DNA from: Candidatus Cryosericum sp.
Lineage (GTDB): Bacteria > Acidobacteriota > Polarisedimenticolia > Gp22-AA2
Direction of reading: 5' to 3'
Length of the DNA: 50,235 nt
Assembly (NCBI GenBank): GCA_035649235.1
Contig: DASRJX010000026.1
Coordinates: 1-50,235 of the forward strand
The notes beneath the pieces were generated by a model. The model had not been told where the DNA came from, did not search any database, and saw nothing but the letters and a program-made list of their open reading frames with translations. Shown one piece after another: positions 316 to 13,246 of this stretch; the first letter of the stretch is position 1; each line of letters begins with the position of its first letter. The position numbers were made by a program, and so were the translations under genes.

Positions 316-344
316 TTGTCCGGCGAGCCCTTTTCCCCTATACT
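316..344 (+). promoter_or_regulatory. Sigma70-type promoter TTGTCC-N17-TATACT
   Basis: -35 at 316-321, -10 at 339-344, 17-bp spacer. The ORF track's TTG start at 316 is this -35 box. Confidence 0.7.
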
Positions 345-354
345 TCGACCCCGC

Positions 355-2661
355 ATGCCGACAAGCAACCCCCAGCCTTTCAGTCACTTGGAGAACCATC
401 GACCGAGGTACTTGGCGGCCGCCGGCCGCTGGCTCTCGTGCATGGTGATCGTGGGGCTGGCCGTATTTGCGGGCGCCCGGGCCGCCACCCCCTACGACAA
501 GGTCGTCGTCCTCGGGTTCGACGGCGCCGACGCCGCGCTCGTGGAGCAGGCCATGGCCGCCGGGAGGCTCCCGAATCTGGCGAAGCTGAAAGCGCAGGGG
601 ATGTACGCGCCCCTCCGCAGCACCAACCCTCCCCAGACGCCGGTCTCCTGGGCCTCCTTCGCCACCGGGCTCAATCCGGGGCGGACGGAGATCTTCGATT
701 TCCTGAGGCGGACCGAAGGCACGTACCTGCCGGAGTTCGCCATGATCAAGGAAGGGAAGCGCCCGCTCTTCTTCGGGGCCAGAAACCCGGCGGCCTTCGG
801 CGGGATCGCGGCGGCATTCGGTCTCGTGCTGGGGGGTGGTCTCGGGCTCCTCCTCCGGCGGCGCCGGGGGGCGCTCTGGCTCATGCCCGTCGTGGTCGCC
901 GCGATCGCGGGTGCCGGCGCTGGCCTGCTGGTCTCCCGCTGGATGCCGCGCGAGGTTCCGGACGCGCACAACGCGCGCAAAGGCCTGCCGTTCTGGACGG
1001 CCGCAGCCGCGGCCGGAGTGCAGACGCGCGTCATCCACGTCCCGGACACGTTCCCGGCGGAAAGCCACGATCACCTGACGATGCTCTCGGGCCTGGGCGT
1101 GCCGGACATGCGCGGGCGCATCGGGTCTCCCTCGTTCTACACCTCCGATGCCTCGCTCAGCCTTTCCGACAACCAGTTCAGCGTCGAGATCATCAAGCTC
1201 AAGGCGCGGCGCGGGCGGATCGAGACGGCCGTCGTCGGGCCGCTTAACAAGCCGTTCTACGACTATGCCATCGACGAGGCGCTCAAGGGGATCGACGCGC
1301 CCCAGGCCAGGAAGGAGGCCCGCGCGGCCATCGAGAAGCGGCTCGCCGGGAACGGCGTGCGGCGCAGGCTCGACGTGCCGCTGGTCATCGACGCCCGGGA
1401 CGACTCCGTGATCCTCGAGATGGCCGGGCAGCGCCAGACCCTGACCCCGGGCCAGTGGAGTCCCTTCCTGGTCGTCCCGGTGCGCGTGAATCCCCTCGTC
1501 GACGCGGTCGCCGGGCTGAAGGGGATCGTGCGCTTCAAGCTGCTGGCGCTCGATCCGGAGCTGAAGCTCTACATGAGCCCGCTCAACTTCCATCCCGACT
1601 GCCAGCCGATCCCGTTCACCTCGCCGGTCTCCTACGCGCGCGATCTCGTCCGGGCCTTCGGCCTGTTCAAGACCCTGGGCTGGCCTATCGACACCTGGTC
1701 GCTGCCTTCCGGGCTGACCGACGAGTCGCATTTCCTCGAGGATCTCGAGATGACGGTCGCGACCCAGTTGGCGATGATGAAGAGCGCCCTGGAATCGGGC
1801 CAGGACCGGCTCTACCTGCAGGTCTTCGACTTCACCGATCGCGTCGGGCACATGCTCTGGCGACTGCACGACCCCGGTCATCCTCTGTTCGACGCGGTCC
1901 GGGCGCAGCGCTACGCGGGCGAGATCGACAAGGCCTACGATCGGATGGACGCCATCGTGGGCGAGGCGGTGCAGCGGATGGGCCCAAGGACCGCCCTGAT
2001 CGTCTGCTCTGATCACGGATTCGCCTCCTTCAGGCGCGGGGTCAACTACAACACCTGGCTCGTGAAGAACGGCTTCATGACCTTGCGCGAAGGGTCGTAC
2101 GGCGGCAAGACCCTCGAGGATCTCTTCGACCGCGGCGAGTTGGGGGAGTTCTTCAAGTTCGTGGACTGGTCGCGCACCAAGGCCTACGCCATGGGCCTGG
2201 GGAACATCTACATCAACCTGCTCGGGCGCGAGCCGAAGGGGAGCGTGGCGCCAGGGCGCGAGTACGACGAGGTTCGCGACGCGATCGCCCGGGGCCTCGA
2301 ATCCCTCGTCGATCCCGAGACCGGCGAGAAGCCGGTCCTGAAGGTCTACCGGCGCGAGGAGATCTATTCCGGGTTCGACCCGCGCGTCCTGCCCGATCTC
2401 CGGCCGGCCAACCGCGATCACTACCGCGTGGGGTGGCAGACGGCTCTCGGCGAGGTGCCGCCCAACATCTTCGAGGACAATCTGAAGCCCTGGAGCGGCG
2501 ATCACTGCTCCAACGATCCCTCCGTCGTCCCGGGAGTGCTGTTCTCGAACGTCCGACTCGACCCGGGCGCTCCCGGGATTGGCGACATCTACCCGACCAT
2601 CCTGGAGCTGCTTGGCGTGCCCGGCGTGCCGGGCATCGACGGCAGGAGCCTCGTGCGTTGA
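355..2661 (+). CDS. Alkaline phosphatase superfamily protein (nucleotide pyrophosphatase/phosphodiesterase-like), exported and membrane anchored
   Basis: Motifs VLGFDGAD, PPQTPVSWASFATG (Thr nucleophile), DFTDRVGH, CSDHGF, WSGDH; N-terminal signal peptide and an internal hydrophobic hairpin. Start ATG 355 (alternative 442). Confidence 0.85.
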   Translation: MPTSNPQPFSHLENHRPRYLAAAGRWLSCMVIVGLAVFAGARAATPYDKVVVLGFDGADAALVEQAMAAGRLPNLAKLKAQGMYAPLRSTNPPQTPVSWASFATGLNPGRTEIFDFLRRTEGTYLPEFAMIKEGKRPLFFGARNPAAFGGIAAAFGLVLGGGLGLLLRRRRGALWLMPVVVAAIAGAGAGLLVSRWMPREVPDAHNARKGLPFWTAAAAAGVQTRVIHVPDTFPAESHDHLTMLSGLGVPDMRGRIGSPSFYTSDASLSLSDNQFSVEIIKLKARRGRIETAVVGPLNKPFYDYAIDEALKGIDAPQARKEARAAIEKRLAGNGVRRRLDVPLVIDARDDSVILEMAGQRQTLTPGQWSPFLVVPVRVNPLVDAVAGLKGIVRFKLLALDPELKLYMSPLNFHPDCQPIPFTSPVSYARDLVRAFGLFKTLGWPIDTWSLPSGLTDESHFLEDLEMTVATQLAMMKSALESGQDRLYLQVFDFTDRVGHMLWRLHDPGHPLFDAVRAQRYAGEIDKAYDRMDAIVGEAVQRMGPRTALIVCSDHGFASFRRGVNYNTWLVKNGFMTLREGSYGGKTLEDLFDRGELGEFFKFVDWSRTKAYAMGLGNIYINLLGREPKGSVAPGREYDEVRDAIARGLESLVDPETGEKPVLKVYRREEIYSGFDPRVLPDLRPANRDHYRVGWQTALGEVPPNIFEDNLKPWSGDHCSNDPSVVPGVLFSNVRLDPGAPGIGDIYPTILELLGVPGVPGIDGRSLVR

Positions 2662-3944
2662 AGCGCCGCGCGGGACGGGTGCCAGGGGCGGCCGCAGCCG
2701 GGCTGTGGCTGACCGCCCTGCTCCTGACCGTCTCCGTCCCCCGTCCCTGCCGCGCGCAGGAACCGGGGGCGGGCCCGGCCCAGGAGGAGAGCCCTCCCGC
2801 CGCGGCTCCCACCGAAGGGCCCCGCGAGGACGAGACCCCGGAGGAGACGGCGCGCCTGGAGAAGATTCGGGGCGAGATCGACGCGCTCCGGCAGCGGCTT
2901 CTGCAGGGCGAATCCGACGCCGGGAGCCTGCTGGATCAGCTCGACTCGATCGACCTGACCCTGGCGGTCCTGGGGCGCGAGGCATCGCTCCTGGAGGCGG
3001 GAATCGCCTCCAAGCGCCGCGCCCAGGAGAGGGCGCGCTCCGCGGCCGCTGTGGCGGGGAGGCGGGCGACGCTGGCGGAAAGGGACCTGCGTCGCTGGCT
3101 GGTCGAGATGTACAAGGCCGGACCGTCGCGCGACCTGCGCCTGGTCCTGACGGCCTCGTCGCCGGGGGAGCTGGCAGGCGCCCAGCGCGCCGCCGAGGCC
3201 CTGGCGCGCGAGGAATCGCGGCGGGTCGGGGCGATCCTCGACGAGCGCGCGCGCCTCGATGCCGCCGTGCACGACCTGGAAGAGACGCAGGCCAGCCTGC
3301 AGGGACTCCTGGCGGACAAGGCGCGGCGTCAGGTCGACCTGACGACCGCCCGGAAGACCAAGAACCACCTTCTCTCCGACATCCGCGCCCGGCAGCAGAG
3401 CGGCGAGCAGGCTCTCATGGCGCTGGTGCAGGTGGAACGTGATCTGCAGACGCTGCTCCAGTCTCTCCCTGGCGTCCCAGGGGGGGGCGCCACGCCCTCC
3501 TACGGCCTGCCGCGCTTCCGTGGGCTGCTCAACTGGCCGGTCAGAGGAGAGGTCAGCATCCCCTTCGGGAACGTCCGCCACCCGCGCTTCGCCACCCAGG
3601 TGCCCCACCCGGGGCTGGAGATCGCCTCCCCCCCCGGCGAGCCGGTGCGGGCCCTGTTCGACGGCCGGGTCGCTTTCAGCGCCTGGTTCCGCGGCTACAG
3701 CCAGATGATTGTCATCGACCACGGTGACGAGTATCTTTCTATCTACGGCCAGCTCGGAGAGCGGCTGGTCGAGGCGGGCCAGGAGGTCCGCCGGGATCAG
3801 CCGATCGCCCGAACGGGCGAGCAGGGGACCTTCGGAGCGACGGGCCTTTATTTCGAAGTCCGCCACCACGGGAAAGCCGAGGACCCGGTGCCGTGGCTGA
3901 GGCGCAACGCGGGCCGTGCTGCGACCCGCCCGGAGACGCGATGA
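2658..3944 (+). CDS. envC: Murein hydrolase activator EnvC family (coiled coil plus degenerate M23/LytM domain)
   Basis: Signal peptide, long coiled coil, C-terminal LNWPVRG...HPGLEI...YLSIYGQL...LYFEVR...DP M23 fold with incomplete Zn ligands. TTG 2658 overlaps the upstream TGA, with AGGAG upstream. Precedes an S41 gene, as envC does elsewhere. Confidence 0.8.
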   Translation: MKRRAGRVPGAAAAGLWLTALLLTVSVPRPCRAQEPGAGPAQEESPPAAAPTEGPREDETPEETARLEKIRGEIDALRQRLLQGESDAGSLLDQLDSIDLTLAVLGREASLLEAGIASKRRAQERARSAAAVAGRRATLAERDLRRWLVEMYKAGPSRDLRLVLTASSPGELAGAQRAAEALAREESRRVGAILDERARLDAAVHDLEETQASLQGLLADKARRQVDLTTARKTKNHLLSDIRARQQSGEQALMALVQVERDLQTLLQSLPGVPGGGATPSYGLPRFRGLLNWPVRGEVSIPFGNVRHPRFATQVPHPGLEIASPPGEPVRALFDGRVAFSAWFRGYSQMIVIDHGDEYLSIYGQLGERLVEAGQEVRRDQPIARTGEQGTFGATGLYFEVRHHGKAEDPVPWLRRNAGRAATRPETR

Positions 3945-5116
3945 TGAAATTGTCCATCGAACGAAAGGTGCTCCTCCTGCTGTCGGCGGTGACGATCGCC
4001 CTGACCCTGGCCGGGGGCCTTCTGGGGAGCGCGGCGGCGACCGAAGGAACCTACGACTACCTGCGGGTGTTCAACGAGGCCCTGTACCTCGCCATGAACA
4101 ACTACGTCGAGCCGGTCCAGATCGAGGCACTCATGGAGGGCGCGTACCGCGGCATGCTCGAGTCGCTCGATCCGGGCAACGAGTACCTGACTCCGGCCGA
4201 ATACCAGAAGGCGACGCGCGGCGAGAACGCCGGTCCCGCCGAGGTCGGCGTGAACCTCTCGAAGCGCCACGGCTACGCGATAGTCGTCTCGGCCCTCCCC
4301 GGCAGCCCCGCGGCCTCCTCCGGCGTGAAGAGCGGCGACATCCTCCTCAGCATCGACGGCCGCACGACTCGCCTCATGGGCGCCTGGGAGGCCGCACAGG
4401 CCCTGCGGGGCAAATCCGGGTCGAAGGCGGTGCTGGTGCTGAACCCGGCCGACGGAGGGGATCGCAAGACATTGACCATCGAGCGCAAGGTCCTGCCTCC
4501 GCCCCAGCCCGTGGGGAACTTCGTCGCTCCCGAGGTCGGCGTCGTGCGCATCGCCGGCATCCGCGAGGGGGACGCCCGCCGTCTCGACCAGGCGATCGCT
4601 TCGCTCCGATCGCAGGGCATCAAGCGGTTGCTGCTCGACCTGCGTGGCTGTGCCTCCGAATCGCTGGCGGAGCCGATCGGCATGGCCAGCCTGTTCGTGA
4701 AGGACGGCGTAATCGTGAGCGTCACTGATCGCTTCGACGGCGACAAGGCCTACCGCGCCGATGGCCGCCGGCGCGCCTGGAGCGGACCACTCGCTCTCCT
4801 GGTCGACGGGGGGACCAGCCGGGGATGCGAAGCGCTCACGGCCGGCCTGCGCGATGCCGCGGGCGCCGCGGTGCTGGGGGAGCGCACCTGGGGGACGGGC
4901 ACGGTCGCTTCGATTCTGCCCCTGCGCAACGGCGACGGGGTGATCCTGGCCGTCGGCTCCATGCACTCTCCCACCGGCAAGGAGTGGAACGGCAAGGGGA
5001 TCGATCCCGATCTTGTCATCACCGCCGAGGGCTCGGCCTCGGGCGATTCCCAGCGTCAGAAGGCCATCGAGTACCTGCGCGGGGTTGCCAGGCCCGCGGA
5101 GCGCGAAGCCGCCTGA
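3941..5116 (+). CDS. S41/CtpA-family carboxy-terminal protease homolog with PDZ domain; catalytic Ser and Lys substituted
   Basis: AYRGMLESLDP, PDZ (VVSALPGSPA..SGVKSGD), LLDLRG, VDGGTSRGCE, GERTWGTG. ATG 3941 overlaps the envC stop. Confidence 0.85.
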   Translation: MMKLSIERKVLLLLSAVTIALTLAGGLLGSAAATEGTYDYLRVFNEALYLAMNNYVEPVQIEALMEGAYRGMLESLDPGNEYLTPAEYQKATRGENAGPAEVGVNLSKRHGYAIVVSALPGSPAASSGVKSGDILLSIDGRTTRLMGAWEAAQALRGKSGSKAVLVLNPADGGDRKTLTIERKVLPPPQPVGNFVAPEVGVVRIAGIREGDARRLDQAIASLRSQGIKRLLLDLRGCASESLAEPIGMASLFVKDGVIVSVTDRFDGDKAYRADGRRRAWSGPLALLVDGGTSRGCEALTAGLRDAAGAAVLGERTWGTGTVASILPLRNGDGVILAVGSMHSPTGKEWNGKGIDPDLVITAEGSASGDSQRQKAIEYLRGVARPAEREAA

Positions 5117-5203
5117 GGCAGTCGGGAAGGCGCCTCCCGCCCGGCAAAGACCCCAAACCGGCCCGGACCGATCCCTATTCCGCCGCGCCCCCGGCTTCTT
5201 CTC

Positions 5204-5232
5204 TGGACGCCCGCTGAGCGCGCCCCTATATT
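5204..5232 (+). promoter_or_regulatory. Candidate sigma70 promoter TGGACG-N17-TATATT for the kinase operon
   Basis: -35 at 5204-5209, -10 at 5227-5232, in the 162-bp intergenic gap. Confidence 0.5.
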
Positions 5233-5278
5233 GACTTCAAGTCCGCTGGAGTGCGGACGGGGAGCGAGGTGCGGGCGG

Positions 5279-6742
5279 ATGAGCCTGCCCAAGACCATCG
5301 GGCGCTACGAGGTGCTGGAGGAGATCGGACGCGGTTCGATGGGCGTCGTCTACAAGGCCCGCGATCCCCGCATCGGCCGCGTGGTGGCGCTCAAGTGCGT
5401 GTCCTTCAGCTTTCCCCTCGGCCCGGGGGAGGAGGAGGACTTCCTGCGGCGCTTCTACCATGAGGCGCAGATCGCGGGACGACTCAGCCACAACAACATC
5501 GTGACCATCTACGACGTCGGCGAGAAGGCGGCCGAGGGCGCCGCCTTCATCGCCATGGAGTACGTCACCGGGAACAACCTGCAGGAGCTGCTGGCGGGCG
5601 GCGGGCGTCTGCCGCTGAGCCAGATCGCCGATCTGACCTCGCAGGCGGCCGACGCCCTGGACTACGCGCACGCGAACGGCGTCGTGCACCGCGACATCAA
5701 GCCCGGCAACCTGGTGATGACGGCCTCCGGCCAACTGAAGATCCTCGACTTCGGAATCGCCCGGATGGCCGCCGCGGACGTCACGCGGCCGGGGAAGTTC
5801 CTCGGCACGCCGAACTACATGTCGCCGGAACAGGTGACCGGCGCGTCGGTGGACGGCAGGGCCGACCAGTTCGCGCTCGGCGTGACGCTGTTTCATCTCA
5901 TGACGGGCGAGCGGCCCTTCGCCGGCGAGAGCATCACCGCCATCACCTACCAGGTGGTGAACGTGACGCCCCCACCGCCCTCGCGCCTCAATCCCACGCT
6001 CCCCCCAGCGGTCGATCCGATCGTCGCCCGGGCGCTGGCGAAATCCCCCGCCGAGCGGTACCCGCTCTGCACCGACCTGGCGACCGATCTCAAGTCCGTC
6101 GTGAGTGCCTGGAGGGAGACGGCGAACCGGGCGGGCCCGCCGACGCTCGAATCCTCGCTTCCCTCCCGAGCCGTGATCGCGCCCTCGGTGGCCGAGGGCC
6201 AGCCCCCCGTCCCGCCGCGGCCCGCTCTGTCCCTAACGGGGCCCCGTGCGCTCGCGGGCTGGTCTTTGTTCCTGGTTTCTCTGGCCATCCTGGCTGCCGC
6301 GCCGTATCTCCTACGGGGAGCCGATCGGACTCCGAAGTCCGCGTCAGGGACCCTTCTGGGCTCGGCGCTCTCGACCGATCCCCCCGCGCCACGCGAGGTA
6401 ACTGCGGCGCCGCGCGAGGCATCGGCCCTGCTGGTTCTGAGCCTGCAGCACCGGCTCCGGTCCGGATCGGTGACGGCCCGCCTGGACGGCGTAACGGTGC
6501 TGGATGAATCAATCAAGGGATCGGGAGGCAAGGCGCGATGGGTCCGGGAGATCGCCACGACACCGGGCCGGCATCGGATCGAGGCGCGGCTTGTCGGCGA
6601 CGGAGGCGATGTGGATGACATCGAGGGGATCGACCTCGTTCTCTCGGCCGACCAGCGCGTCATCGTCGACCTGTCCGTGAACCCGCTCTCGCACCGGCTG
6701 AAGATGCGCGCCGACGGTCCGGCAGAAGGCGCCTCCCGATGA
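5279..6742 (+). CDS. Hanks-type Ser/Thr protein kinase with one TM helix and a C-terminal extracytoplasmic beta-rich domain
   Basis: GRGSMGVV, VALK, HRDIKPGN, DFG, GTPNYMSPE; Pro-rich linker; TM ALAGWSLFLVSLAILAAAPYLL. Start ATG 5279. Confidence 0.95.
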   Translation: MSLPKTIGRYEVLEEIGRGSMGVVYKARDPRIGRVVALKCVSFSFPLGPGEEEDFLRRFYHEAQIAGRLSHNNIVTIYDVGEKAAEGAAFIAMEYVTGNNLQELLAGGGRLPLSQIADLTSQAADALDYAHANGVVHRDIKPGNLVMTASGQLKILDFGIARMAAADVTRPGKFLGTPNYMSPEQVTGASVDGRADQFALGVTLFHLMTGERPFAGESITAITYQVVNVTPPPPSRLNPTLPPAVDPIVARALAKSPAERYPLCTDLATDLKSVVSAWRETANRAGPPTLESSLPSRAVIAPSVAEGQPPVPPRPALSLTGPRALAGWSLFLVSLAILAAAPYLLRGADRTPKSASGTLLGSALSTDPPAPREVTAAPREASALLVLSLQHRLRSGSVTARLDGVTVLDESIKGSGGKARWVREIATTPGRHRIEARLVGDGGDVDDIEGIDLVLSADQRVIVDLSVNPLSHRLKMRADGPAEGASR

Positions 6743-8706
6743 CGGCCCGACGTCATCCAACCCTCGGAGCGGCCTGGCTTCTGCCGATGCTGGTCGCGGT
6801 GACCTCTGCCTCCGCGGCCAACGGGGCGGCGGACCTCTCCCGCCGGGCGCAGGCCTATCAGCTCTATGCCCAGGCGCAGATGCTCCTGTTCGACCGCCAG
6901 GAGGAGTCGGCGGTGAAGCTCCTGGAGCAGGCGATCGAGCGCGATCCCGATCCGGCGCTCTTGCTCGAGACCGCCCGGGCCCACGACCTGCTCGGCCACT
7001 TCGAGCGCGCGATCGAGATCACCCGCAAGGCGCTCGCCCAGCGCCCCGGGTGGGCCGAAGCGTGGAGCCTCCTTGGCGACATCCATCTCGGCCAGGCGCG
7101 CGCCGGCATCGACGGCGATCTTCACATCGAGCGGGCGCTCGAGGCCTATCGAGAGGCGGTTCGATCCGATCCCGACGACCAGGCCACGGTGCGGGCCCTG
7201 GCGGAAGTCTGCTTCCAGATGGGGCGAATCCGGGAAGCGGAGGAGGTGCTCGATCGCCTGGCGTCGCGACGGCCGCTGCCTCCCTCGCTGAGCCTCCTCC
7301 AGTCGCGCATCCTCATCAAGACCGGCGAGGCCGAGAAAGCCGAGACCATCCTGACGAACCTCGTCTCCCGCTCGCCTCTCAGCATGGAGGCCGTCGACGC
7401 GCTGGCGGGGATCTATGAAACCGGCGGCCGCCTGGAGGAGGCGCTCGCGCTCTACGACCCGGCGCTGCGCGCCGACATCATCGACACCGGCCTGTTCGAT
7501 CGGGTGGGCCTGCTGCACCTCGAAGCCGGCCACGATCGCGAGGCCATCGACTTCCTGGAGCGGGCCCGCCGGCTGGACGCCGGCGACGCTCGCCGGCTGC
7601 TGCCGCTGGCGCAGGCCTATGAGGCCGTCGGCGAGTACCAGAAGGCGGCGGAGGCCTGCGAAGGCGCCCTGGCAGTCAACCCGACGAGCCTCGAGACCCT
7701 GTTCCACCACGCCCGGCTCCAGCGCAAGATGGGGAACGCCGAGGTCGCCCGGCGCGGCTACGACGAGATGATCCGGCTCGCCGAGTCCCGTGGGAAGCTG
7801 ACCGAGCGCGAGACGACGCTCGTGACGCTCGCGAGCGCGCAGGTCGGACTGCTGGCCATGGAGGTGCACGATTACGCCGCCTCCTCGTCCGCCTTCGCCC
7901 GCGCCGCCAAACTGGACAACGGCACCAGGCCCGAGTTGGTGTTCCTCCTGGCGCGGTCTCTTCTGCTTCAGGGGGACCTGGAGGGGGCCGATCGGACGGC
8001 CGCCGAGGCGACGGAGCGCTTCCCCGAGGCGCTCGAAATGTACGTACTGAGGGGCGAGATCCTCCTGGCCCGCGGCGACGAGAAGGCGGCCGGCGCCTAC
8101 TTCAAGGATCTGCTGAAGCGTCAGGACAGCTCGGTCGAGGCCTACGTGGGCGTCGGCGAGGCCCTGATGCGGAGCAAGCGGTTCGCCGACGCCGAAGCGA
8201 CCCTGTCGGACGGTCTCAAGGGCCACAAGGACGACGACCGGCTGCTGTTCGCGCACGGAGCCGCCCTCGAGCGCCTCGGCCGGATCGATCAGGCCCAGCA
8301 GGCACTGGCGCAGGCGGTGGCCGTGAACCCCGACAACGCCATGGCGCTCAACTATCTCGGCTATCTGCTCGCCGATCAGGGGGTCCGCCTGCGCGACTCC
8401 ATGTCGTACGTCGAGAGGGCCCTTGAGCTCGACCCGGAGAATCCTGCCTACCTCGACAGCCTCGGCTGGGTCCTCTTCAAGCTCGAGCGCTACGAGCCGG
8501 CCGAAGCGAAGTTGCGGGCCGCCTTGCGGTACGATGCGACCGACCCGGCGATCCGGGAGCACCTCGGAGATCTCCTGGTCGCGACGGGTCGGGACGAGGA
8601 GGCGTTGCGCGAGTGGGAGGCGGCGCTGAAGTGCGGGCACGAGGAGCCGGATCGGATCCGGGAGAAGATGGCCAAGGCGAAGGAACGGATCCGCTCCCCC
8701 CACTGA
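6739..8706 (+). CDS. Exported multi-TPR protein (positional equivalent of Pseudomonas LbcA)
   Basis: Signal peptide ending ASA, many TPR units, and C-terminal NAMALNYLGY.LAD...YLDSLGWV.FKL...HLGD typical of the TPR gene upstream of lolB/ispE. Confidence 0.85.
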   Translation: MTARRHPTLGAAWLLPMLVAVTSASAANGAADLSRRAQAYQLYAQAQMLLFDRQEESAVKLLEQAIERDPDPALLLETARAHDLLGHFERAIEITRKALAQRPGWAEAWSLLGDIHLGQARAGIDGDLHIERALEAYREAVRSDPDDQATVRALAEVCFQMGRIREAEEVLDRLASRRPLPPSLSLLQSRILIKTGEAEKAETILTNLVSRSPLSMEAVDALAGIYETGGRLEEALALYDPALRADIIDTGLFDRVGLLHLEAGHDREAIDFLERARRLDAGDARRLLPLAQAYEAVGEYQKAAEACEGALAVNPTSLETLFHHARLQRKMGNAEVARRGYDEMIRLAESRGKLTERETTLVTLASAQVGLLAMEVHDYAASSSAFARAAKLDNGTRPELVFLLARSLLLQGDLEGADRTAAEATERFPEALEMYVLRGEILLARGDEKAAGAYFKDLLKRQDSSVEAYVGVGEALMRSKRFADAEATLSDGLKGHKDDDRLLFAHGAALERLGRIDQAQQALAQAVAVNPDNAMALNYLGYLLADQGVRLRDSMSYVERALELDPENPAYLDSLGWVLFKLERYEPAEAKLRAALRYDATDPAIREHLGDLLVATGRDEEALREWEAALKCGHEEPDRIREKMAKAKERIRSPH

Positions 8707-9500
8707 GCCGCCCGTCTCCCGTTCTTCGCCCGACGGTCCTGCTGCTCCTCGTTGCCGCCTGCGCGGGCGGCCCCCGGCCGGTCACCCAGCCCGTCCCCGA
8801 GGGGGACGGCGTCCGGGTCCTGTTCCGCGTCGAATCGGACGGCCCGCGCGGACGCTCCCGGTTCCGCATGGCGGCGGCGCTGCGCCCCCCTTCGGAGGCC
8901 CGGCTGGAGTTCCTCGGTCCCGTCGGCGGCCCGCGCCTCGTCGTGGCCACGGACGGTGCGCAGGCGACGGCGATCCTGCCCGCGGAGCGGCGCTACGACC
9001 TCACCCGAGCGACCCCCGATGCGATGCACCACCTGCTCGGCCTGCCGCTCGACGGCGCGCGCCTGATCGCCCTGCTCTCGGGAGTTCCTCTCTGCCCGCT
9101 CCCCGCCGCCGCGGGGGCCCCGTCGACCCCCGCCACGGACCTTCGGTGGGACGCCGCGTGCGCGGCGGGGGACATCCGGTTCTCGGGCGTCGTCGGAGCC
9201 GCCGGCGAGCCCTTGCGGGAGGCCGTCCTGAGCGATGCGGTCAGCGGTGCGATCCTCGCCAAGGTGGAATACGGTGACCGGTTCGCTCTGCCGGGCGGGG
9301 GCTGGCCGCGCGACATCAGGATGACTCTGCCCTCGGCGGACGTGACGATCACCCTGACGGCGCTCGAGGCTCCTCTGGCGGCGCGCCTCCCCGACGACCT
9401 GTTCGCGCCCAGCATCCCGGAAAGCTTCGAACGAAGTGCTATCTTCGGCCGGCCGGAGGATCCGGCGCTCTTCGGAGCCGCCGATTCCGGGGGACAATGA
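8703..9500 (+). CDS. Lipoprotein, putative LolB/LolA-like fold
   Basis: Lipobox LLLLVAA-C; beta-rich body (ARLEFLGPVGGPRLVVATDG...WPRDIRMTLP...ITL); sits between the TPR gene and ispE, the lolB position. Start uncertain; CTG 8703 overlapping the upstream TGA is the best in-frame candidate. Confidence 0.55.
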   Translation: MSRPSPVLRPTVLLLLVAACAGGPRPVTQPVPEGDGVRVLFRVESDGPRGRSRFRMAAALRPPSEARLEFLGPVGGPRLVVATDGAQATAILPAERRYDLTRATPDAMHHLLGLPLDGARLIALLSGVPLCPLPAAAGAPSTPATDLRWDAACAAGDIRFSGVVGAAGEPLREAVLSDAVSGAILAKVEYGDRFALPGGGWPRDIRMTLPSADVTITLTALEAPLAARLPDDLFAPSIPESFERSAIFGRPEDPALFGAADSGGQ

Positions 9501-10381
9501 CCTCTCTCCGCCTGCGGGCCCCCGCCAAAATCAATCTCTTCCTCAAGGTCCTGGGACGCCGCCCGGACGGGTTCCACGAGATCGAGACCGTCGTGCAGAG
9601 CGTCACTCTCCACGATGGTCTCGAGCTCGCGATCGGGGGGGACGGGATCAGGCTCGAGGTCGACGACGTTCGCCTGCCGGCCGATCCCACGAACCTCGTC
9701 TGGCGTGCCGCGAGGGCCCTGCTGGGGGAGTGTCCTCCCGACCGCGGCCTCGCCATGCGGCTGCGGAAGCGGATCCCGATCGCGGCCGGCCTGGGCGGCG
9801 GCAGCAGCGACGCGGCGGCGGCCCTGAGAGGGGTCGACGCTCTATACGCCCTGGGGCTCCCGGCCGAGACTCTGGAGCGCCACGCCGCCGCCCTGGGATC
9901 GGACGTGCCGTACTTCCTTGTCGGGGGGGCGGCGCTCCTGAAGGGGAGGGGGACCGTGATCCACCCCCTGCCGGACCTGCCACGGGCCGATCTCGTCGTC
10001 GCCTCTTCCGTCGAGCCCCTTCCGACGCCCCTCGTTTACGCGCAGCTTCAAGAGCCATTGACACTTGCACCCCGAACGGCTAGCATACGCGACTCCGGGC
10101 GTATCCTCGCGGATCTTGAGTCGTTGGTGCGGTTAGGGAACGATCTCGAGCCGCACGCCGAGCGCTTGTGCGCCGAGATCGGTCCGATCCGCGAGGCGCT
10201 CCTCGCGGCGGGTGCGAGGGTGGCTGCCATGAGCGGTAGCGGATCGGCTGTCTTCGGCGTCTTCGCGAGCGCCGCGGCGGCGCGGGAGGCAGCGGGGACA
10301 CTGGAACGACAGGGGTTCCGGGCGCTGGCCTGCGCGACCCTCGACCGGGCCACGTACCAGCGGGACTGGATGGAGCACTGA
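9497..10381 (+). CDS. ispE: 4-diphosphocytidyl-2-C-methyl-D-erythritol kinase
   Basis: APAKINLFL, RIPIAAGLGGGSSDAAA, GSDVP, MSGSGSAVF. Confidence 0.97.
   Translation: MTSLRLRAPAKINLFLKVLGRRPDGFHEIETVVQSVTLHDGLELAIGGDGIRLEVDDVRLPADPTNLVWRAARALLGECPPDRGLAMRLRKRIPIAAGLGGGSSDAAAALRGVDALYALGLPAETLERHAAALGSDVPYFLVGGAALLKGRGTVIHPLPDLPRADLVVASSVEPLPTPLVYAQLQEPLTLAPRTASIRDSGRILADLESLVRLGNDLEPHAERLCAEIGPIREALLAAGARVAAMSGSGSAVFGVFASAAAAREAAGTLERQGFRALACATLDRATYQRDWMEH
10058..10086 (+). promoter_or_regulatory. Internal sigma70 promoter TTGACA-N17-TAGCAT inside ispE
   Basis: Perfect -35 at 10058-10063, -10 at 10081-10086, in a locally AT-richer stretch of the coding sequence. Confidence 0.75.
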
Positions 10382-10781: not shown

Positions 10782-10855
10782 TGGGGCGTCGTCAAGCGGT
10801 AAGACACTGGACTTTGGATCCAGCACCGGAGGTTCGAATCCTCCCGCCCCAACCA
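10782..10855 (+). tRNA. tRNA-Gln (UUG), CCA encoded
   Basis: Acceptor stem TGGGGCG/CGCCCCA, anticodon arm CTGGA-CTTTGGA-TCCAG, T-loop GGTTCGAATCC, 3' ACCA. Confidence 0.97.
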
Positions 10856-10889
10856 GGCGCGGGGGGGCGGGGACTTGGAGCGGCAGGGG

Positions 10890-11849
10890 ATGAACGAAGC
10901 GGCGGGCATCGACGGCGACCTCAAGGTGTTCTCGGGCAGCGCGCATCCCGCGCTGGCACGCGAGATCTGCGCCACGCTCGGCATCGCGCCCGGTGCGGCC
11001 GACGTCCGGCGCTTCGCCGACGGTGAGGCCTACTGCCACATCCTGGAGAACATCCGCGGCACGGATGTGTTCGTGATCCAGCCCACCTGCCCGCCCGTCG
11101 ACGCCAACCTGATGGAGCTCCTGGTCATGCTGGACGCCTTCAAGCGCTCGTCGGCGGCGCGCGTCACCGCGGTGCTCCCGTATTACGGCTATGCTCGGCA
11201 GGACCGCAAGGACAAGCCCCGCGTGCCGATCACGGCCAAGCTGGTGGCGGACCTGCTGACGGCCTCCGGAGCGGACCGCATCCTCGCCATGGACCTGCAC
11301 GCGCCCGCCATCCAGGGCTTCTTCGATATTCCGGTGGACCACCTGTTCGCGGCTCCCGTCCTCATTGAGCACGTGCAGCGTCTCGGTCTCAAGGACCTGG
11401 TCATCGTGTCGCCGGACGCGGGCGGCGTCGAGCGGGCACGCGCCTACGCCAAGAGGCTCAACGGATCGCTGGCGATCATCGACAAGCGGCGCGGCGAGAA
11501 GAACGAACCTCAAGTCATGCACGTCATCGGAGAGGTCGACGGGCGCAATTGTCTCATCGTGGACGACATGATCGACACCGCCGGGACACTCGTCGGCTCG
11601 GTTCAGGCGCTCGCCAAGGAAGGGGCCCGGTCGGTCTACGGCTGCTTCAGCCACGCGGTCCTGTCGGGACCCGCTCTCGAGAGGCTGCGCAGCATCGAGC
11701 TGGCTCAGACCGTGGTCACCAACAGCATCCCGCTCGATCCCGGCAAGGCGAAGGCCGGTCGGGTCACGGTCCTGTCGGTCGCCGAGCTCCTCGGCGAGGC
11801 GATCCGGAGAATCCATACGAACTCGTCCGTCAGCTCCCTGTTCGTCTAG
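10890..11849 (+). CDS. prs: Ribose-phosphate pyrophosphokinase
   Basis: FADGE, PYYGYARQDRK, DLHA, VSPDAGGVERAR, VDDMIDTAGT. Start ATG 10890. Confidence 0.98.
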   Translation: MNEAAGIDGDLKVFSGSAHPALAREICATLGIAPGAADVRRFADGEAYCHILENIRGTDVFVIQPTCPPVDANLMELLVMLDAFKRSSAARVTAVLPYYGYARQDRKDKPRVPITAKLVADLLTASGADRILAMDLHAPAIQGFFDIPVDHLFAAPVLIEHVQRLGLKDLVIVSPDAGGVERARAYAKRLNGSLAIIDKRRGEKNEPQVMHVIGEVDGRNCLIVDDMIDTAGTLVGSVQALAKEGARSVYGCFSHAVLSGPALERLRSIELAQTVVTNSIPLDPGKAKAGRVTVLSVAELLGEAIRRIHTNSSVSSLFV

Positions 11850-11897
11850 GGACTGAGGACCCATGCCCGAGGCGCGCGCCGGCGGAGGTAGGGATCG

Positions 11898-12623
11898 ATG
11901 AACGAACAGGTGGTGGATGTCACGAAGCGGGAGACGAGCGGCAAGAACGTCTCGCGCCGCCTGCGGCGGTCGGGGCAGATCCCGGCCATCCTCTACGGCG
12001 GCGGGCGCGACGCCGTGCCGCTGACGGTCGATCCGGACCGCATCCGGGACATCATCCGGTCTGAATCGGGCGTCAACACGATCTTCCTGCTGAACCTGGC
12101 CGGCACCGATCAGCGGCGACACGTCATGATCAAGGAGTACCAGGTCGACCCCGTGGAGGGCCGGCTGATCCACGCCGACTTCCTCCGCATCCAGATGGAC
12201 GCGGTCATGGAGGTCGAAGTGCCGGTCGTCCTCAAGGGCGAGCCCCAAGGCGTCAAGCTGGATGGCGGGATCCTGGAGCACGTGACGCGTCAGGTGCGCG
12301 TGTCGTGCCTGCCGGGGGACATCCCGGAGCATCTCGACATCGAGGTCACCACGCTCAAGATCGGAGACCACCTGAGCGTCGCCGACCTGCCCAAGAGCGA
12401 CCGCTACCGCATCCTGAGCGACCCGGCGCTGATCGTGGCGGTCTGCTCGCCACCGGCCAAGGAGGAGGTTGCGGCACCGGCGGCCGCCGAGGCCGTGACG
12501 GCGGCTCCGGCGGAACCGGAGGTCCTGAAGAAGGGCAAGGCGGCCGCCGAGGGGGAGGAGGCGGAAGGCGCCGAGGCGGAGGAGAAGAAGAAGGACACCA
12601 AGAAGCCCGAAGGGAAGAAGTAA
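11898..12623 (+). CDS. rplY: 50S ribosomal protein L25, long Ctc/TL5 form
   Basis: SRRLRRSGQIPAILYG, KEYQVDPV...HADF, C-terminal domain and charged tail; GGAGG SD. Confidence 0.96.
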   Translation: MNEQVVDVTKRETSGKNVSRRLRRSGQIPAILYGGGRDAVPLTVDPDRIRDIIRSESGVNTIFLLNLAGTDQRRHVMIKEYQVDPVEGRLIHADFLRIQMDAVMEVEVPVVLKGEPQGVKLDGGILEHVTRQVRVSCLPGDIPEHLDIEVTTLKIGDHLSVADLPKSDRYRILSDPALIVAVCSPPAKEEVAAPAAAEAVTAAPAEPEVLKKGKAAAEGEEAEGAEAEEKKKDTKKPEGKK

Positions 12624-12640
12624 CAGGGTCCGGATGACGC

Positions 12641-13246
12641 GTGATCCGGGTGCTCATCGGTCTCGGCAACCCCGGCGCCCGCTACAAGCGGACGCGACAC
12701 AACGTCGGCTACATGGTGCTCGAGGAGATCGGACGGCGTCACAGCGGAACGGCGGAGCGCGAGGCGTCGCACTGTCTCGTCGGGAGCGCGGATCTGGATG
12801 GCGTCCCGCTGACGCTGGCGCGGCCGATCCTGTTCATGAACCGCAGCGGCCCGGCGGTGCGGGCGCTCCTGGCGGCGGAGGGGGCCGAGCCCGGAGAGGC
12901 GCTGGTCATCTGCGACGATCTGGCGGTCCCTTTCGGAACCCTGCGGCTGAGGCGGCAGGGGAGTCATGGAGGGCACAACGGCCTGCGCTCGATCATCGAG
13001 GCCTTGGGGACCAGGGAGTTTCCGCGGCTCCGCGTGGGCATCGGCCCCGCGGGATCGAGCGCGGAGCACGTCGACTTCGTGCTCGGGCGGTTTCCGCCCG
13101 AGGAGCGCGAGCGGCTGCCGGAGGTGATCGGCGCCGCGGCGGATTGCGCCCTGAGCGTGGTGCGGGATGGGCTCGAACAGGCGATGAACCGTTTCAACCG
13201 CAAGCCGGGCGCTGAGCCGCCCGACGCGGGTCCAGGCGACAGGTGA
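12641..13246 (+). CDS. pth: Peptidyl-tRNA hydrolase
   Basis: GLGNPG..Y..TRHNVG, DDL, HGGHNGLRS; GTG start. Confidence 0.97.
   Translation: MIRVLIGLGNPGARYKRTRHNVGYMVLEEIGRRHSGTAEREASHCLVGSADLDGVPLTLARPILFMNRSGPAVRALLAAEGAEPGEALVICDDLAVPFGTLRLRRQGSHGGHNGLRSIIEALGTREFPRLRVGIGPAGSSAEHVDFVLGRFPPEERERLPEVIGAAADCALSVVRDGLEQAMNRFNRKPGAEPPDAGPGDR

What the first reader, a model, noticed from the sequence alone, without database searches (positions are those of the whole stretch)
2658..9500. Envelope cluster joins envC-ctpA to the TPR(LbcA-like)-lolB-ispE locus, with a kinase between them
Seen: five co-oriented genes: envC, an S41 homolog, a membrane Ser/Thr kinase, an exported TPR protein and a LolB-like lipoprotein, running into ispE-tRNAGln-prs-rplY-pth. 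Known: in Pseudomonas aeruginosa envC-ctpA and lbcA-lolB-ispE-tRNAGln-prs-rplY-pth are two distant loci, yet CtpA and its TPR adaptor LbcA form a complex that degrades peptidoglycan cross-link hydrolases. Inference: the two loci sit side by side here, which suggests an older CtpA-TPR module. This version has a catalytically dead protease and a kinase, so it may control cell-wall hydrolases by binding or signalling rather than by proteolysis. Caveat: a candidate promoter at 5204-5232 means the halves need not be co-transcribed.
Basis: partly seen in the sequence, partly recalled or inferred. Interest (0 to 1): 0.75.

Follow-up and report, generated by a model that had tools for sequence, protein, structure and literature searches.

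The report
Conserved cell-wall cluster with dead protease
In one class of Acidobacteriota, two old cell-envelope operons (envC-ctpA-yibQ and lbcA/wthA-lolB-ispE) lie head to tail, and the CtpA-type protease in them has lost its catalytic residues, as it has across most of the phylum, so it probably acts by binding rather than cutting.

Summary
Window 2658-9500 encodes, co-oriented: an EnvC-type degenerate-LytM amidase activator, a CtpA-like S41 protein lacking both catalytic residues (Ser->Arg, Lys->Thr), an intact transmembrane Ser/Thr kinase, a secreted LbcA/WthA-family TPR protein, and a lipoprotein with a LolA/LolB fold. ispE-tRNAGln-prs-rplY-pth follow.

The adjacency is not unique. All 32 sampled genomes of the class (Ca. 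Polarisedimenticolia) have it, and so does one family from another acidobacterial class. The other 39 acidobacterial families sampled lack it: TPR-lolB-like-ispE (26 of 40 loci) and envC-S41(-yibQ) are separate loci there. The joint therefore looks derived, not an older CtpA-TPR module.

The dead protease is older than the joint. Most EnvC-type S41 proteins across the phylum lack the dyad, and 64 of the 150 closest 50%-identity clusters lack both residues.

The kinase is an accessory. It occurs in the window's family and, with the same ectodomain, in the second lineage. It is translationally coupled to the TPR gene.

The part of LbcA that docks CtpA is not detectable in this TPR protein, so an S41-TPR complex is unproven. 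Published work already reports wthA/lbcA-lolB synteny, and envC in that operon in Bacteroidota.

Verdict: a new variant of a known kind, of moderate interest.

The parts
316..2661 (+). Membrane type I phosphodiesterase / nucleotide pyrophosphatase family protein (alkaline-phosphatase superfamily). [quoted passage not shown] The start codon is uncertain.
   Evidence: Pfam PF01663 at 6.6e-31. Its TGA stop overlaps the envC TTG start. It lies upstream of envC throughout the class and in some other classes.
2658..3944 (+). EnvC-type murein-hydrolase activator: signal peptide, coiled-coil region and a degenerate LytM domain.
   Evidence: Pfam M23 1.1e-24 and NCBIfam EnvC 4.6e-32. PDB EnvC 4bh5 at 2e-23, plus longer alignments to EnvC chains of FtsEX-EnvC complexes covering query 167-416. 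The metal-ligand motifs are degenerate in the sequence: HPGLE in place of HxxxD, and GLYFE in place of HxH, as in E. coli EnvC (alignment).
3941..5116 (+). CtpA-like S41 pseudo-protease: N-terminal membrane anchor or signal, helix H1, PDZ domain and S41 core without the Ser/Lys dyad.
   Evidence: Pfam S41 3.9e-28 plus PDZ. PDB CtpA 7rpq at 1e-42, with GGTSRGCE aligned to GGSASAAE and TWGTGTV aligned to SFGKGSV. The dyad is absent in all 30 orthologues of the class. The ATG overlaps the envC TGA.
5204..5232 (+). Sigma-70-like promoter match (TGGACG-17-TATATT) inside the 162-nt spacer 5117-5278.
   Evidence: Consensus scan, 9 of 12 matches; sequence. No expression data are available.
5279..6742 (+). 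Hanks-type Ser/Thr kinase: intact kinase domain, one transmembrane helix, and a periplasmic 8-strand beta-sandwich ectodomain (6314-6739).
   Evidence: Pkinase 4.7e-49. The motifs VALK, HRDIKPGN, DFG and SPE are visible in the sequence. The ectodomain model has pLDDT 84 and no significant PDB fold match. The stop overlaps the TPR ATG.
6739..8706 (+). Secreted LbcA/WthA-family TPR protein with a signal peptide and no lipobox Cys.
   Evidence: The profile search against PDB gives LbcA PA4667 as the top natural hit, E 1.6e-51. The C-terminal stretch 426-633 aligns to LbcA 312-518 at 132 bits and shares the motifs NAMALNxLGYxLADR and PAxLDSxGW. It lies immediately upstream of lolB-like-ispE, as lbcA does in P. 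aeruginosa (PMC12569750, PMC12772221).
8703..9500 (+). Lipoprotein with a LolA/LolB fold (LolB-like). The likely start is CTG at 8703, overlapping the TPR stop.
   Evidence: The lipobox L-V-A-A-C is conserved in orthologues. There is no ATG, GTG or TTG between 8631 and the lipobox. The AlphaFold model has pLDDT 84. Foldseek hits: P. gingivalis LolA3 and LolB (9tp6, 9tpm) and E. coli LolB (1iwm), at E 1e-7 to 1e-9. No Pfam, NCBIfam or PDB sequence hit.
9497..10381 (+). IspE (CDP-ME kinase). Its ATG overlaps the lolB-like stop.
   Evidence: NCBIfam ispE equivalogs at 1.6e-63 and 1.2e-57, both above cut-off.
10782..10855 (+). tRNA-Gln (UUG)
   Evidence: ARAGORN.
10875..13246 (+). prs (10875-11849), rplY/L25 (11898-12623) and pth (12641-13246).
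   Evidence: NCBIfam and Pfam hits.

Best explanation
The interval is a conserved cell-envelope supercluster of the acidobacterial class Ca. Polarisedimenticolia. It was made by head-to-tail juxtaposition of two ancient operons that lie apart in most other bacteria.

- Left block: (phosphodiesterase)-envC-ctpA-like-(yibQ/sddA).
- Right block: lbcA/wthA-like TPR-lolB-like-ispE-tRNAGln-prs-rplY-pth.

Shown:
- The identities of the genes.
- Two translationally coupled blocks, PDE-EnvC-S41 and STK-TPR-LolB-like-IspE, separated by one 162-nt spacer.
- Class-wide conservation of the joint.
- Loss of the S41 Ser/Lys dyad across most of the phylum, so the loss predates the joint and does not depend on it.
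- Strong purifying selection on the dead S41.
- A kinase with a specific periplasmic beta-sandwich at the joint in two lineages only.
- Loss of yibQ from this genome.

Inferred:
- The proteins act together in the periplasm to control peptidoglycan hydrolases.
- EnvC activates amidases.
- The LbcA/WthA-like TPR protein scaffolds hydrolases.
- The dyad-less CtpA homologue keeps its PDZ domain and N-terminal H1 helix, and works as a non-degradative binder or adaptor, for example by sequestering or presenting C-termini of hydrolases. Real proteolysis is left to S41 paralogues that keep the dyad.
- The kinase relays a periplasmic cue to cytoplasmic targets.

Whether the pseudo-protease touches the TPR protein directly is open.
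For: Gene identities.

Four-nucleotide start/stop overlaps sit at 2658, 3941, 6739, 8703 and 9497. The single gap is 5117-5278.

Synteny within the class:
- PDE-EnvC-S41-(YibQ)-STK-TPR-LolBl-IspE-Prs-RplY-Pth in 16 of 16 loci from same-family genomes.
- The same order without the kinase in 14 of 14 loci from other families of the class, plus G091 and G105.

Synteny across the phylum:
- TPR lies directly upstream of ispE in 26 of 40 families.
- EnvC-S41 lies within 10 kb of ispE in only one of them, f31.
- All four f31 genomes with enough contig (of five sampled) carry PDE-EnvC-S41-YibQ-STK-LolBl-IspE. The fifth sits at a contig end and shows only STK-LolBl-IspE.

Dyad loss:
- 30 of 30 class orthologues lack it.
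- 22 of 27 S41 loci from other classes lack both residues, many of them flanked by EnvC and YibQ.
- 64 of the 150 closest 50%-identity clusters lack both residues, including 37 of the top 50.

Constraint: mean identity of S41 within the family is 61%, against IspE 50%, Pth 53%, EnvC 49% and TPR 45%.

The most conserved S41 motif is helix H1, 'YxYLKLFNEALYL'. It aligns with CtpA H1 residues L46, F49 and L53, which form the dimer and LbcA-docking face (PMC11021448).

The own genome keeps an S41 paralogue with TASAAE and FGKG, so with the dyad intact.

The kinase ectodomain profile hits the C-termini of all five f31 kinases and no other kinase near ispE.

Literature:
- P. aeruginosa has envC-ctpA-PA5135 and lbcA operons (PMC12569750).
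- WthA/LbcA is a hub for PG hydrolases, is syntenic with lolB(-like), and has envC in its operon in Bacteroidota (PMC12772221).
- YibQ/SddA is a PG deacetylase linked to EnvC (10.1101/2025.02.18.638797).
Against: - No expression or interaction data exist.
- The spacer carries a promoter-like site, so the halves may be separate transcription units.
- LbcA's N-terminal adaptor (aa 1-163), which docks CtpA, is not detectable in this TPR protein. Its N-terminus reads as ordinary TPR repeats.
- The S41 ends about 30 residues after the core, so a CtpA-like C-terminal assembly region was not aligned.
- Family f31 keeps the joint but has no TPR gene there. Most Acidobacteriota keep the pseudo-protease far from the TPR gene. 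S41 function therefore cannot depend on adjacency to the TPR gene.
- The ectodomain fold gives no functional clue.
Confidence: 0.6

Rival explanations
1. Neutral synteny. The two operons became neighbours through one rearrangement in an ancestor of the class and have simply stayed together. They are transcribed and used independently, and the right block is basically a housekeeping ispE-prs-rplY-pth string.
For: - The only sizeable intergenic gap, with a promoter-like site, lies exactly at the joint.
- The joint is where gene content varies, with yibQ and the kinase present or absent.
- 39 of 40 other acidobacterial families keep the operons apart.
Against: - The joint survives in all 32 sampled genomes across at least 13 families, even though genes are inserted and lost at that very point.
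- In families without the kinase, S41 and TPR are about 60-165 nt apart on the same strand.
- A similar joint exists in f31.
- In Bacteroidota envC sits in the wthA operon (PMC12772221).
Confidence: 0.3
2. This is a relic of an ancestral CtpA-TPR module, in which the dead S41 still forms an LbcA-CtpA-type complex with the TPR protein and, together with the kinase, controls hydrolases by binding and signalling.
For: - The TPR protein belongs to the LbcA/WthA family.
- The hydrophobic face of CtpA H1 that LbcA docks on is conserved and is the best-conserved S41 motif.
- S41 and TPR are immediate neighbours in most of the class.
Against: - The joint is restricted to one class plus f31, so it is not ancestral by parsimony.
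- The LbcA adaptor domain is undetectable.
- Dyad loss is phylum-wide and independent of adjacency.
- The kinase is absent from most families of the class.
- f31 lacks the TPR gene at the locus.
Confidence: 0.2
3. The kinase is a chance insertion, since Acidobacteriota carry many Ser/Thr kinases, and has no functional tie to its neighbours.
For: - Unrelated kinases sit near ispE in other families: L098, L110, L118 and G105.
- The kinase is absent from the sister family f2 and from 11 other families of the class.
Against: - Its stop overlaps the TPR start as ATGA.
- It is present in 16 of 16 family genomes.
- A kinase with the same C-terminal ectodomain sits at the same joint in all five f31 genomes and nowhere else among the loci examined.
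Confidence: 0.15
4. The S41 is still a protease that uses substitute residues.
For: A Ser lies one position before the nucleophile site in the window protein (GGT-S-R).
Against: - That Ser is not conserved: orthologues have S, A or G there.
- Orthologues never have Lys at the catalytic Lys position; the residue there varies (T, S, G, A, I, L, E, D, H, M, R).
- The DLRxNPGG oxyanion stretch is also changed.
Confidence: 0.03

Closest known systems
P. aeruginosa envC-ctpA-PA5135 (yibQ/sddA) operon; E. coli gpmM-envC-yibQ
   Same: - The gene order EnvC, CtpA-type S41, YibQ is the same. YibQ (PF04748, 5.4e-69) is present at this position in 6 of 16 family relatives with a full-length hit (a weak partial match in a seventh) and in f31.
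- EnvC has a degenerate LytM domain.
- S41 matches CtpA best among solved structures.
   Different: - The S41 lacks the Ser/Lys dyad.
- yibQ is missing from the window genome (the genome is 86% complete).
- The upstream gene is an NPP-type phosphodiesterase rather than gpmM/pgm.
- The operon abuts the lbcA-like operon.
LbcA (PA4667) / WthA TPR hub proteins and their lbcA-lolB-ispE operon
   Same: - Strong C-terminal homology: 132 bits over about 207 residues, with shared signature motifs.
- The TPR regions are collinear.
- The gene lies immediately upstream of a LolB-fold lipoprotein gene and ispE-tRNAGln-prs-rplY-pth.
- Simpson et al. 2025 report this synteny across Gram-negatives, and envC in the operon in Bacteroidota.
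   Different: - No lipobox, so the protein is predicted to be soluble and periplasmic.
- The N-terminal CtpA-binding adaptor is not detectable.
- The partner S41 is non-catalytic.
- A kinase gene is translationally coupled upstream.
LolB / LolA-fold lipoprotein receptors (E. coli LolB 1iwm; P. gingivalis LolB 9tpm)
   Same: - It is a lipoprotein with the unclosed beta-barrel-plus-helices fold: Foldseek E 1e-7 to 1e-9, and TM 0.63-0.70 on the target.
- It holds the same genomic position, upstream of ispE.
   Different: - No sequence-level similarity (10-16% identity; no Pfam or NCBIfam hit).
- It is about 60-80 residues longer.
- The function is untested.
Degenerate LytM factors (EnvC, NlpD, DipM) as a precedent for dead hydrolase folds that regulate cell-wall enzymes
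   Same: A hydrolase or protease fold that has lost its catalytic residues yet is strongly conserved and encoded among peptidoglycan-remodelling genes.
   Different: The fold is different (S41 serine protease with a PDZ domain). I found no published description of a dyad-less CtpA family in the searchable library.

Membership tests
EnvC-type amidase activator (dLytM) | C-terminal LytM/M23 domain | tested here: met
   Pfam PF01551 at 1.1e-24. The NCBIfam EnvC model is the best hit at 4.6e-32 but scores below the equivalog cut-off. PDB EnvC 4bh5 at 2e-23.
EnvC-type amidase activator (dLytM) | Loss of the Zn-ligand / catalytic motifs (HxxxD, HxH) | tested here: met
   The sequence reads HPGLE and GLYFEVRHHG where active M23 enzymes have HxxxD and HxH. 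It aligns residue for residue with E. coli EnvC SLYFEIRRQG.
EnvC-type amidase activator (dLytM) | N-terminal coiled coil that binds FtsX | tested here: inconclusive
   Alignments to full-length EnvC chains of FtsEX-EnvC complexes extend back to query residues 167-181. The fold was not predicted, and FtsX binding cannot be tested with these tools.
Carboxyl-terminal processing protease, CtpA subfamily (MEROPS S41A) | PDZ domain plus S41 core | tested here: met
   Pfam PDZ_6 at 3.4e-10 and Peptidase_S41 at 3.9e-28. CtpA 7rpq at 1e-42 over residues 54-376.
Carboxyl-terminal processing protease, CtpA subfamily (MEROPS S41A) | Ser/Lys catalytic dyad | tested here: not met
   Arg aligns with CtpA Ser302 and Thr with the catalytic Lys. 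The dyad is absent in 30 of 30 orthologues. The protein is therefore a homologue, not a protease member.
Carboxyl-terminal processing protease, CtpA subfamily (MEROPS S41A) | N-terminal H1 helix with the hydrophobic face that forms the dimer and docks LbcA (L46, F49, L53) | tested here: met
   YDYLRVFNEALYL aligns with LDELRTFAEVLDRV, and L, F and L are conserved. This is the most conserved block in the family alignment. Residue roles are taken from PMC11021448.
LbcA/WthA TPR hub proteins | Homology to the LbcA TPR superhelix, especially the C-terminal signature | tested here: met
   With the profile of 16 orthologues, LbcA is the top natural PDB hit at 1.6e-51. The C-terminal domain scores 132.5 bits over profile positions 426-633 against LbcA 312-518.
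LbcA/WthA TPR hub proteins | Synteny with lolB or a lolB-like gene | tested here: met
   The gene lies directly upstream of a LolB-fold lipoprotein gene and ispE. The same arrangement holds in 26 of 40 acidobacterial families. The criterion is the one used by Simpson et al..
LbcA/WthA TPR hub proteins | [quoted passage not shown] | tested here: not met
   [quoted passage not shown] The region reads as plain TPR repeats. Divergence beyond detection cannot be excluded.
LbcA/WthA TPR hub proteins | Outer-membrane lipoprotein anchor | tested here: not met
   The signal peptide ends ...VTSASA-ANG with no Cys. Simpson et al. also list soluble periplasmic homologues, so this feature is not strictly defining.
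LolB | LolA/LolB fold | tested here: met
   AlphaFold pLDDT 84 and pTM 0.81. Foldseek hits are to LolA, LolB and LolA3 structures at E 9e-9 to 1e-5, and all top hits belong to this superfamily.
LolB | Lipoprotein (lipobox Cys) | tested here: met
   LLLLVAAC in the window; the Cys is conserved in the orthologues that include the N-terminus.
LolB | Receives lipoproteins from LolA and inserts them into the outer membrane | not testable with these tools
   No assay is available, and there is no sequence similarity to proteobacterial LolB.
Hanks-type bacterial Ser/Thr kinase | Intact catalytic motifs (VAIK Lys, HRD, DFG, APE) | tested here: met
   Pkinase at 4.7e-49 covering profile positions 1-252. 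VALK, HRDIKPGN, DFG and SPE are present in the sequence.
PASTA kinases (PknB/StkP) | Extracellular PASTA repeats | tested here: not met
   The NCBIfam PknB_PASTA model matches only the kinase domain, residues 24-301. The ectodomain is a single beta-sandwich with no Pfam hit and no significant fold match.

The most novel reading that the evidence does not exclude
Acidobacteriota carry an old, widespread family of dyad-less CtpA homologues. These act as non-proteolytic regulators of peptidoglycan hydrolases, a serine-protease counterpart of the degenerate-LytM activators. In Polarisedimenticolia this pseudo-protease, EnvC, the LbcA/WthA-like TPR hub, the LolB-like lipoprotein and a dedicated sensor kinase form one physically interacting envelope-remodelling machine, which is why their operons have fused.
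Probability: 0.25. Interest if true: 0.7.

Novelty: new variant of a known kind. Interest (0 to 1): 0.5.

Why it matters
LbcA-CtpA and NlpI-Prc are the model systems for how Gram-negative bacteria hold cell-wall hydrolases in check by proteolysis. WthA has recently widened the role of the TPR partner to a general hub.

This locus gives a natural experiment. The CtpA partner has been kept under strong selection for a long time without its catalytic residues. In one class it is encoded right beside the TPR hub, an EnvC activator and a LolB-like lipoprotein.

If the pseudo-protease regulates by binding, it would add a pseudoenzyme layer to hydrolase control and help separate the scaffold role of CTPs from their protease role. 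The locus also adds Acidobacteriota to the lineages with a LolB-fold lipoprotein next to ispE, which bears on how lipoproteins reach the outer membrane outside Proteobacteria.

If the joint is only inherited synteny, the lasting result is the description of a large dyad-less S41 family.

Tried and rejected
- The search for related loci with a 17-sequence class-wide S41 alignment failed because no block was conserved enough. The 8-sequence alignment worked, but it reached only Polarisedimenticolia-type contigs, so other phyla could not be surveyed directly.
- Distant TPR homologues P0135 and P0139, from the C-terminal-region search, sit in unrelated contexts (FUSC, purH). They said nothing about the cluster.
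- The LolB-like protein has no Pfam, NCBIfam or PDB sequence hit, and only 19 close homologues, all hypothetical. Only the fold identified it.
- The fold search of the kinase ectodomain gave no significant match: best E 1.4e-3, to generic beta-sandwiches.
- Searches for the LbcA N-terminal adaptor in the window TPR found nothing.
- The literature searches for 'LolB + DUF4292' and 'carboxyl-terminal processing protease + pseudoprotease' returned no papers. The search 'S41 + catalytically inactive + EnvC' returned only noise from s41467 DOIs.
- I did not attempt dN/dS, because synonymous sites are saturated at 55-70% amino-acid identity. Relative amino-acid conservation was used instead.
- G105's kinase at the same joint lacks the ectodomain, so I treated it as an independent kinase.

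Full report
**What is there**

The window has about 70% G+C. On the + strand between 316 and 13246 it carries an unbroken string of genes:

- A membrane type I phosphodiesterase/NPP-family protein, 316-2661: Pfam PF01663 at 6.6e-31.
- An EnvC-type protein, 2658-3944: M23 at 1.1e-24 and NCBIfam EnvC at 4.6e-32.
- An S41/PDZ protein, 3941-5116.
- A Ser/Thr kinase, 5279-6742: Pkinase at 4.7e-49.
- A 655-residue TPR protein, 6739-8706.
- A 265-residue protein with no family hit, 8703-9500.
- IspE (9497-10381), tRNA-Gln (10782-10855), Prs, ribosomal protein L25 and Pth.

**Gene boundaries**

Reading the junctions shows two translationally coupled blocks.
- The PDE stop overlaps the envC TTG (TTGA at 2658).
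- The envC stop overlaps the S41 ATG (ATGA at 3941).
- The kinase stop overlaps the TPR ATG (ATGA at 6739).
- The lolB-like stop overlaps the ispE ATG (9497).

The LolB-like frame has no ATG, GTG or TTG between 8631 and its lipobox. A CTG at 8703 overlaps the TPR stop (CTGA) and would give a textbook lipoprotein signal, M-SRPSPVLRPTVLLLLVAA-C.

The only real spacer is 5117-5278, 162 nt. This is one of four consensus hits in 13.5 kb, against 0.5 expected.

**The individual proteins**

*EnvC.* The best solved relatives are E. coli EnvC (4bh5, 2e-23) and the EnvC chains of FtsEX-EnvC complexes, with alignments reaching back to residue 167. The LytM metal and catalytic motifs are degenerate (HPGLE; GLYFEVRHHG), just as in E. 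coli EnvC.

*S41.* The best solved relative is P. aeruginosa CtpA (7rpq, 1e-42, residues 54-376). In that alignment GGTSRGCE faces GGSASAAE, so Arg stands at the nucleophile Ser302. TWGTGTV faces SFGKGSV, so Thr stands at the catalytic Lys. The protein is a CtpA homologue, not a protease.

*Kinase.* VALK, HRDIKPGN, DFG and SPE are all intact. One transmembrane helix follows, then a 142-residue periplasmic tail. Its conserved last ~95 residues model confidently (pLDDT 84) as an eight-strand beta-sandwich. The fold search found nothing significant (best E 1.4e-3). The ectodomain is not PASTA, and its ligand is unknown.

*TPR protein.*
- Alone, its best natural PDB hit is LbcA/PA4667 at 3e-25.
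- As a profile of 16 orthologues, LbcA is again the top natural hit at 1.6e-51.
- The C-terminal match scores 132 bits (profile 426-633 against LbcA 312-518) and shares NAMALNxLGYxLADR, PAxLDSxGW and HLG. The middle repeats are collinear.
- Together with its position directly upstream of lolB-like-ispE-tRNAGln-prs-rplY-pth, this makes it an LbcA/WthA-family member.
- It has a signal peptide but no lipobox Cys.
- The LbcA N-terminal adaptor (aa 1-163) docks on CtpA in the cryo-EM structures (PMC11021448). It has no detectable counterpart here.

*LolB-like protein.*
- It has only 19 close homologues, all unnamed.
- The lipobox Cys is conserved.
- The AlphaFold model (pLDDT 84, pTM 0.81) hits only LolA/LolB-superfamily structures at the top: P. 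gingivalis LolA3 and LolB, E. coli and V. cholerae LolB, and many LolA. E-values run from 9e-9 to 1e-5, and the TM-score on the target reaches 0.70.

**Where the window comes from**

Contigs with the same gene order are titled Acidobacteriota, mostly Candidatus Polarisedimenticolia (gp22). A few are labelled Patescibacteria, Verrucomicrobiia, Dongiaceae or Binatia. Because they share the synteny and 59-67% identity, those labels look like binning or labelling errors.

**Is the adjacency unique?**

No. I fetched 11-17 kb around the S41 orthologue in 30 relatives and mapped the window's ten proteins onto them.
- All 16 loci from the same family have PDE-EnvC-S41-STK-TPR-LolBl-IspE-Prs-RplY-Pth.
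- All 14 loci from the sister family and ten further families of the class have the same order without the kinase. There, S41 and TPR hits lie about 60-165 nt apart.
- Two more class genomes (G091, G105) agree.

**Is the adjacency ancestral?**

The evidence says no. I located ispE in 86 of 91 genomes spread over the phylum and fetched 10 kb upstream of it in 40 different families.
- A TPR gene of this type lies directly upstream of ispE in 26 of the 40. In 14 of these my family-level profile also detects the LolB-like gene between them.
- EnvC-S41 lies nearby in only one family, f31, which belongs to another class.

In the other classes the ~400-residue S41 is at a separate locus. It is flanked by EnvC in at least 11 of 27 loci and by YibQ in 9, which is the P. 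aeruginosa envC-ctpA-PA5135 arrangement (PMC12569750).

The two operons are thus normally apart in Acidobacteriota, as in Pseudomonas. They were joined in Polarisedimenticolia and in f31.

**The f31 version and yibQ**

All four f31 genomes with enough contig (of five sampled) have PDE-EnvC-S41-YibQ-STK-LolBl-IspE, with no TPR gene at the locus. The fifth is at a contig end and shows only STK-LolBl-IspE.

In the window's own family, a YibQ gene (PF04748, 5.4e-69) lies between S41 and the kinase in six of 16 genomes with a full-length match, and a seventh has a weak partial match. The window genome has none anywhere, but it is only 86% complete.

**The kinase**

It is present in all 16 family genomes. 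A profile of its ectodomain also matches, end to end, the C-termini of all five f31 kinases. It matches no other kinase found near ispE, including the unrelated kinase at the joint in G105.

So a kinase with this particular sensor domain is specifically associated with the joint in two lineages, yet it is missing from most families that keep the joint. It is a recurrent accessory, not a core part.

**The dead protease is the bigger story**

- All 30 class orthologues lack both catalytic residues.
- Among 27 S41 loci from other acidobacterial classes, 22 lack both. Only family f42 (three loci, with EnvC and, in two of them, YibQ beside them) and one longer paralogue keep Ser and Lys.
- A full HMMER scan of 1.84 billion cluster representatives found 1,686 relatives at E<=1e-30. 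Of the best 150 clusters, 64 lack both residues, 11 lack one and 73 keep both. In the top 50, 37 are dyad-less, most with GTAGxAE in place of GSASASE.
- The protein is under strong constraint. Within the family it averages 61% identity, above IspE (50%), Pth (53%), EnvC (49%), TPR (45%) and LolB-like (40%).
- Its best-conserved block is the N-terminal helix YxYLKLFNEALYL. This helix aligns with CtpA H1, whose L46, F49 and L53 form the dimer interface and the LbcA-docking face. Those three residues are L, F and L here.
- The own genome keeps at least one other S41 with an intact TASAAE and FGKG. Nearly every relative also has a second, longer CtpA-like paralogue; the one example whose catalytic motifs were read (L158, from another class) keeps Ser and Lys.

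**How it most likely works**

Shown: the anatomy, conservation and coupling described above.

Inferred from the known roles of the families:
- EnvC with FtsEX activates septal amidases.
- LbcA/WthA proteins bind several hydrolase classes and act as hubs (PMC12772221).
- YibQ/SddA deacetylates denuded glycan and modulates amidases.
- CtpA binds substrate C-termini through its PDZ domain and pocket.

I propose that the dyad-less CtpA homologue is a binding-only regulator or adaptor for cell-wall hydrolases. Fusion of the operons in this class would then co-ordinate the dosage of EnvC, the pseudo-protease, the TPR hub and the LolB-like lipoprotein. The kinase would report a periplasmic state to the cytoplasm, since its catalytic domain cannot reach the periplasmic neighbours.

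I put about 0.6 on the whole picture, about 0.5 on functional coupling of the two halves, and about 0.2-0.25 on a direct S41-TPR complex.

**Against the coupling**

- The spacer with a promoter-like site sits exactly at the joint.
- The LbcA adaptor is absent.
- f31 lacks the TPR gene.
- Most of the phylum keeps the pseudo-protease elsewhere.

**What is already known**

Simpson, McLean and Trent (PNAS 2025, PMC12772221) already reported three relevant points:
- WthA/LbcA homologues are widespread in Gram-negatives and syntenic with lolB or divergent lolB-like lipoprotein genes.
- Some of these homologues are soluble periplasmic proteins.
- In Bacteroidota envC lies within the wthA operon.

The two Pseudomonas operons are well described (PMC12569750). 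I found three things in no paper of the searchable library:
- the phylum-wide dyad-less CtpA family;
- its class-wide insertion between envC and the TPR gene;
- the dedicated kinase.

I therefore rate this a new variant of a known kind, with moderate interest.

**Limits**

- Other phyla could not be surveyed, because the one genome-contig scan reached only close relatives.
- No multimer prediction was possible.
- Most genomes are MAGs.

Noticed in passing
window 5117-5278; relatives L067:3600-4508, L068:1601-2554, L071:11122-12090, L079:7481-8488, L086:11101-12099, L093:11122-12099: Six of 16 same-family genomes carry a full yibQ/sddA-type divergent polysaccharide deacetylase gene (PF04748) between S41 and the kinase; a seventh has a weak partial match. 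The window genome has only a 162-nt spacer there and no PF04748 match anywhere in its (86% complete) assembly.
   Followed up: yes
window 316-2661: An NPP/type I phosphodiesterase membrane protein is translationally coupled to envC. It is conserved upstream of envC across the class and in some other classes. In E. coli and P. aeruginosa the gene upstream of envC is gpmM/pgm, also of the alkaline-phosphatase superfamily. Whether this is a coincidence or a conserved link is unclear.
   Followed up: partly
L112, L165-L168 (family f31, another acidobacterial class): A variant cluster, PDE-EnvC-S41-YibQ-STK-LolB-like-IspE, has the same kinase ectodomain but no TPR gene at the locus. I did not check whether a WthA/LbcA-like gene exists elsewhere in these genomes.
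   Followed up: partly
L149, L160, L161 (family f42): This is the only acidobacterial family sampled in which the envC-linked ~400-aa S41 keeps both Ser and Lys (TASGAE and YGK; yibQ follows in L149 and L161). It would be a useful active out-group for dating the loss of the dyad.
   Followed up: no
L068, L069, L074, L080, L094 (record titles): Contigs with the full Polarisedimenticolia-type synteny (59-67% S41 identity in four of them, 34% in L094) are deposited under the names Patescibacteria, Dongiaceae, Verrucomicrobiia and Binatia. These are probably mislabelled MAG records.
   Followed up: no
window 8703: The LolB-like gene appears to start at a CTG that overlaps the TPR stop (CTGA). The only conventional starts (GTG 8613, GTG 8631) would add a 24-30-residue non-signal extension and a 76-94 nt overlap with the TPR gene.
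   Followed up: partly
window 10058-10086: This is the best sigma-70-like match of the region (TTGACA-17-TAGCAT, 10 of 12). It lies inside the 3' part of ispE, about 700 nt upstream of tRNA-Gln and prs, and could be an internal promoter for the downstream housekeeping genes.
   Followed up: no
L118:1133-3796 (family f38); L098:6016-8484: Other Acidobacteriota have unrelated Ser/Thr kinases near ispE. One, fused to PD40 beta-propeller repeats, lies directly upstream of ispE. Another, fused to TPR_12/TPR_10 repeats, lies upstream of the TPR gene.
   Followed up: partly
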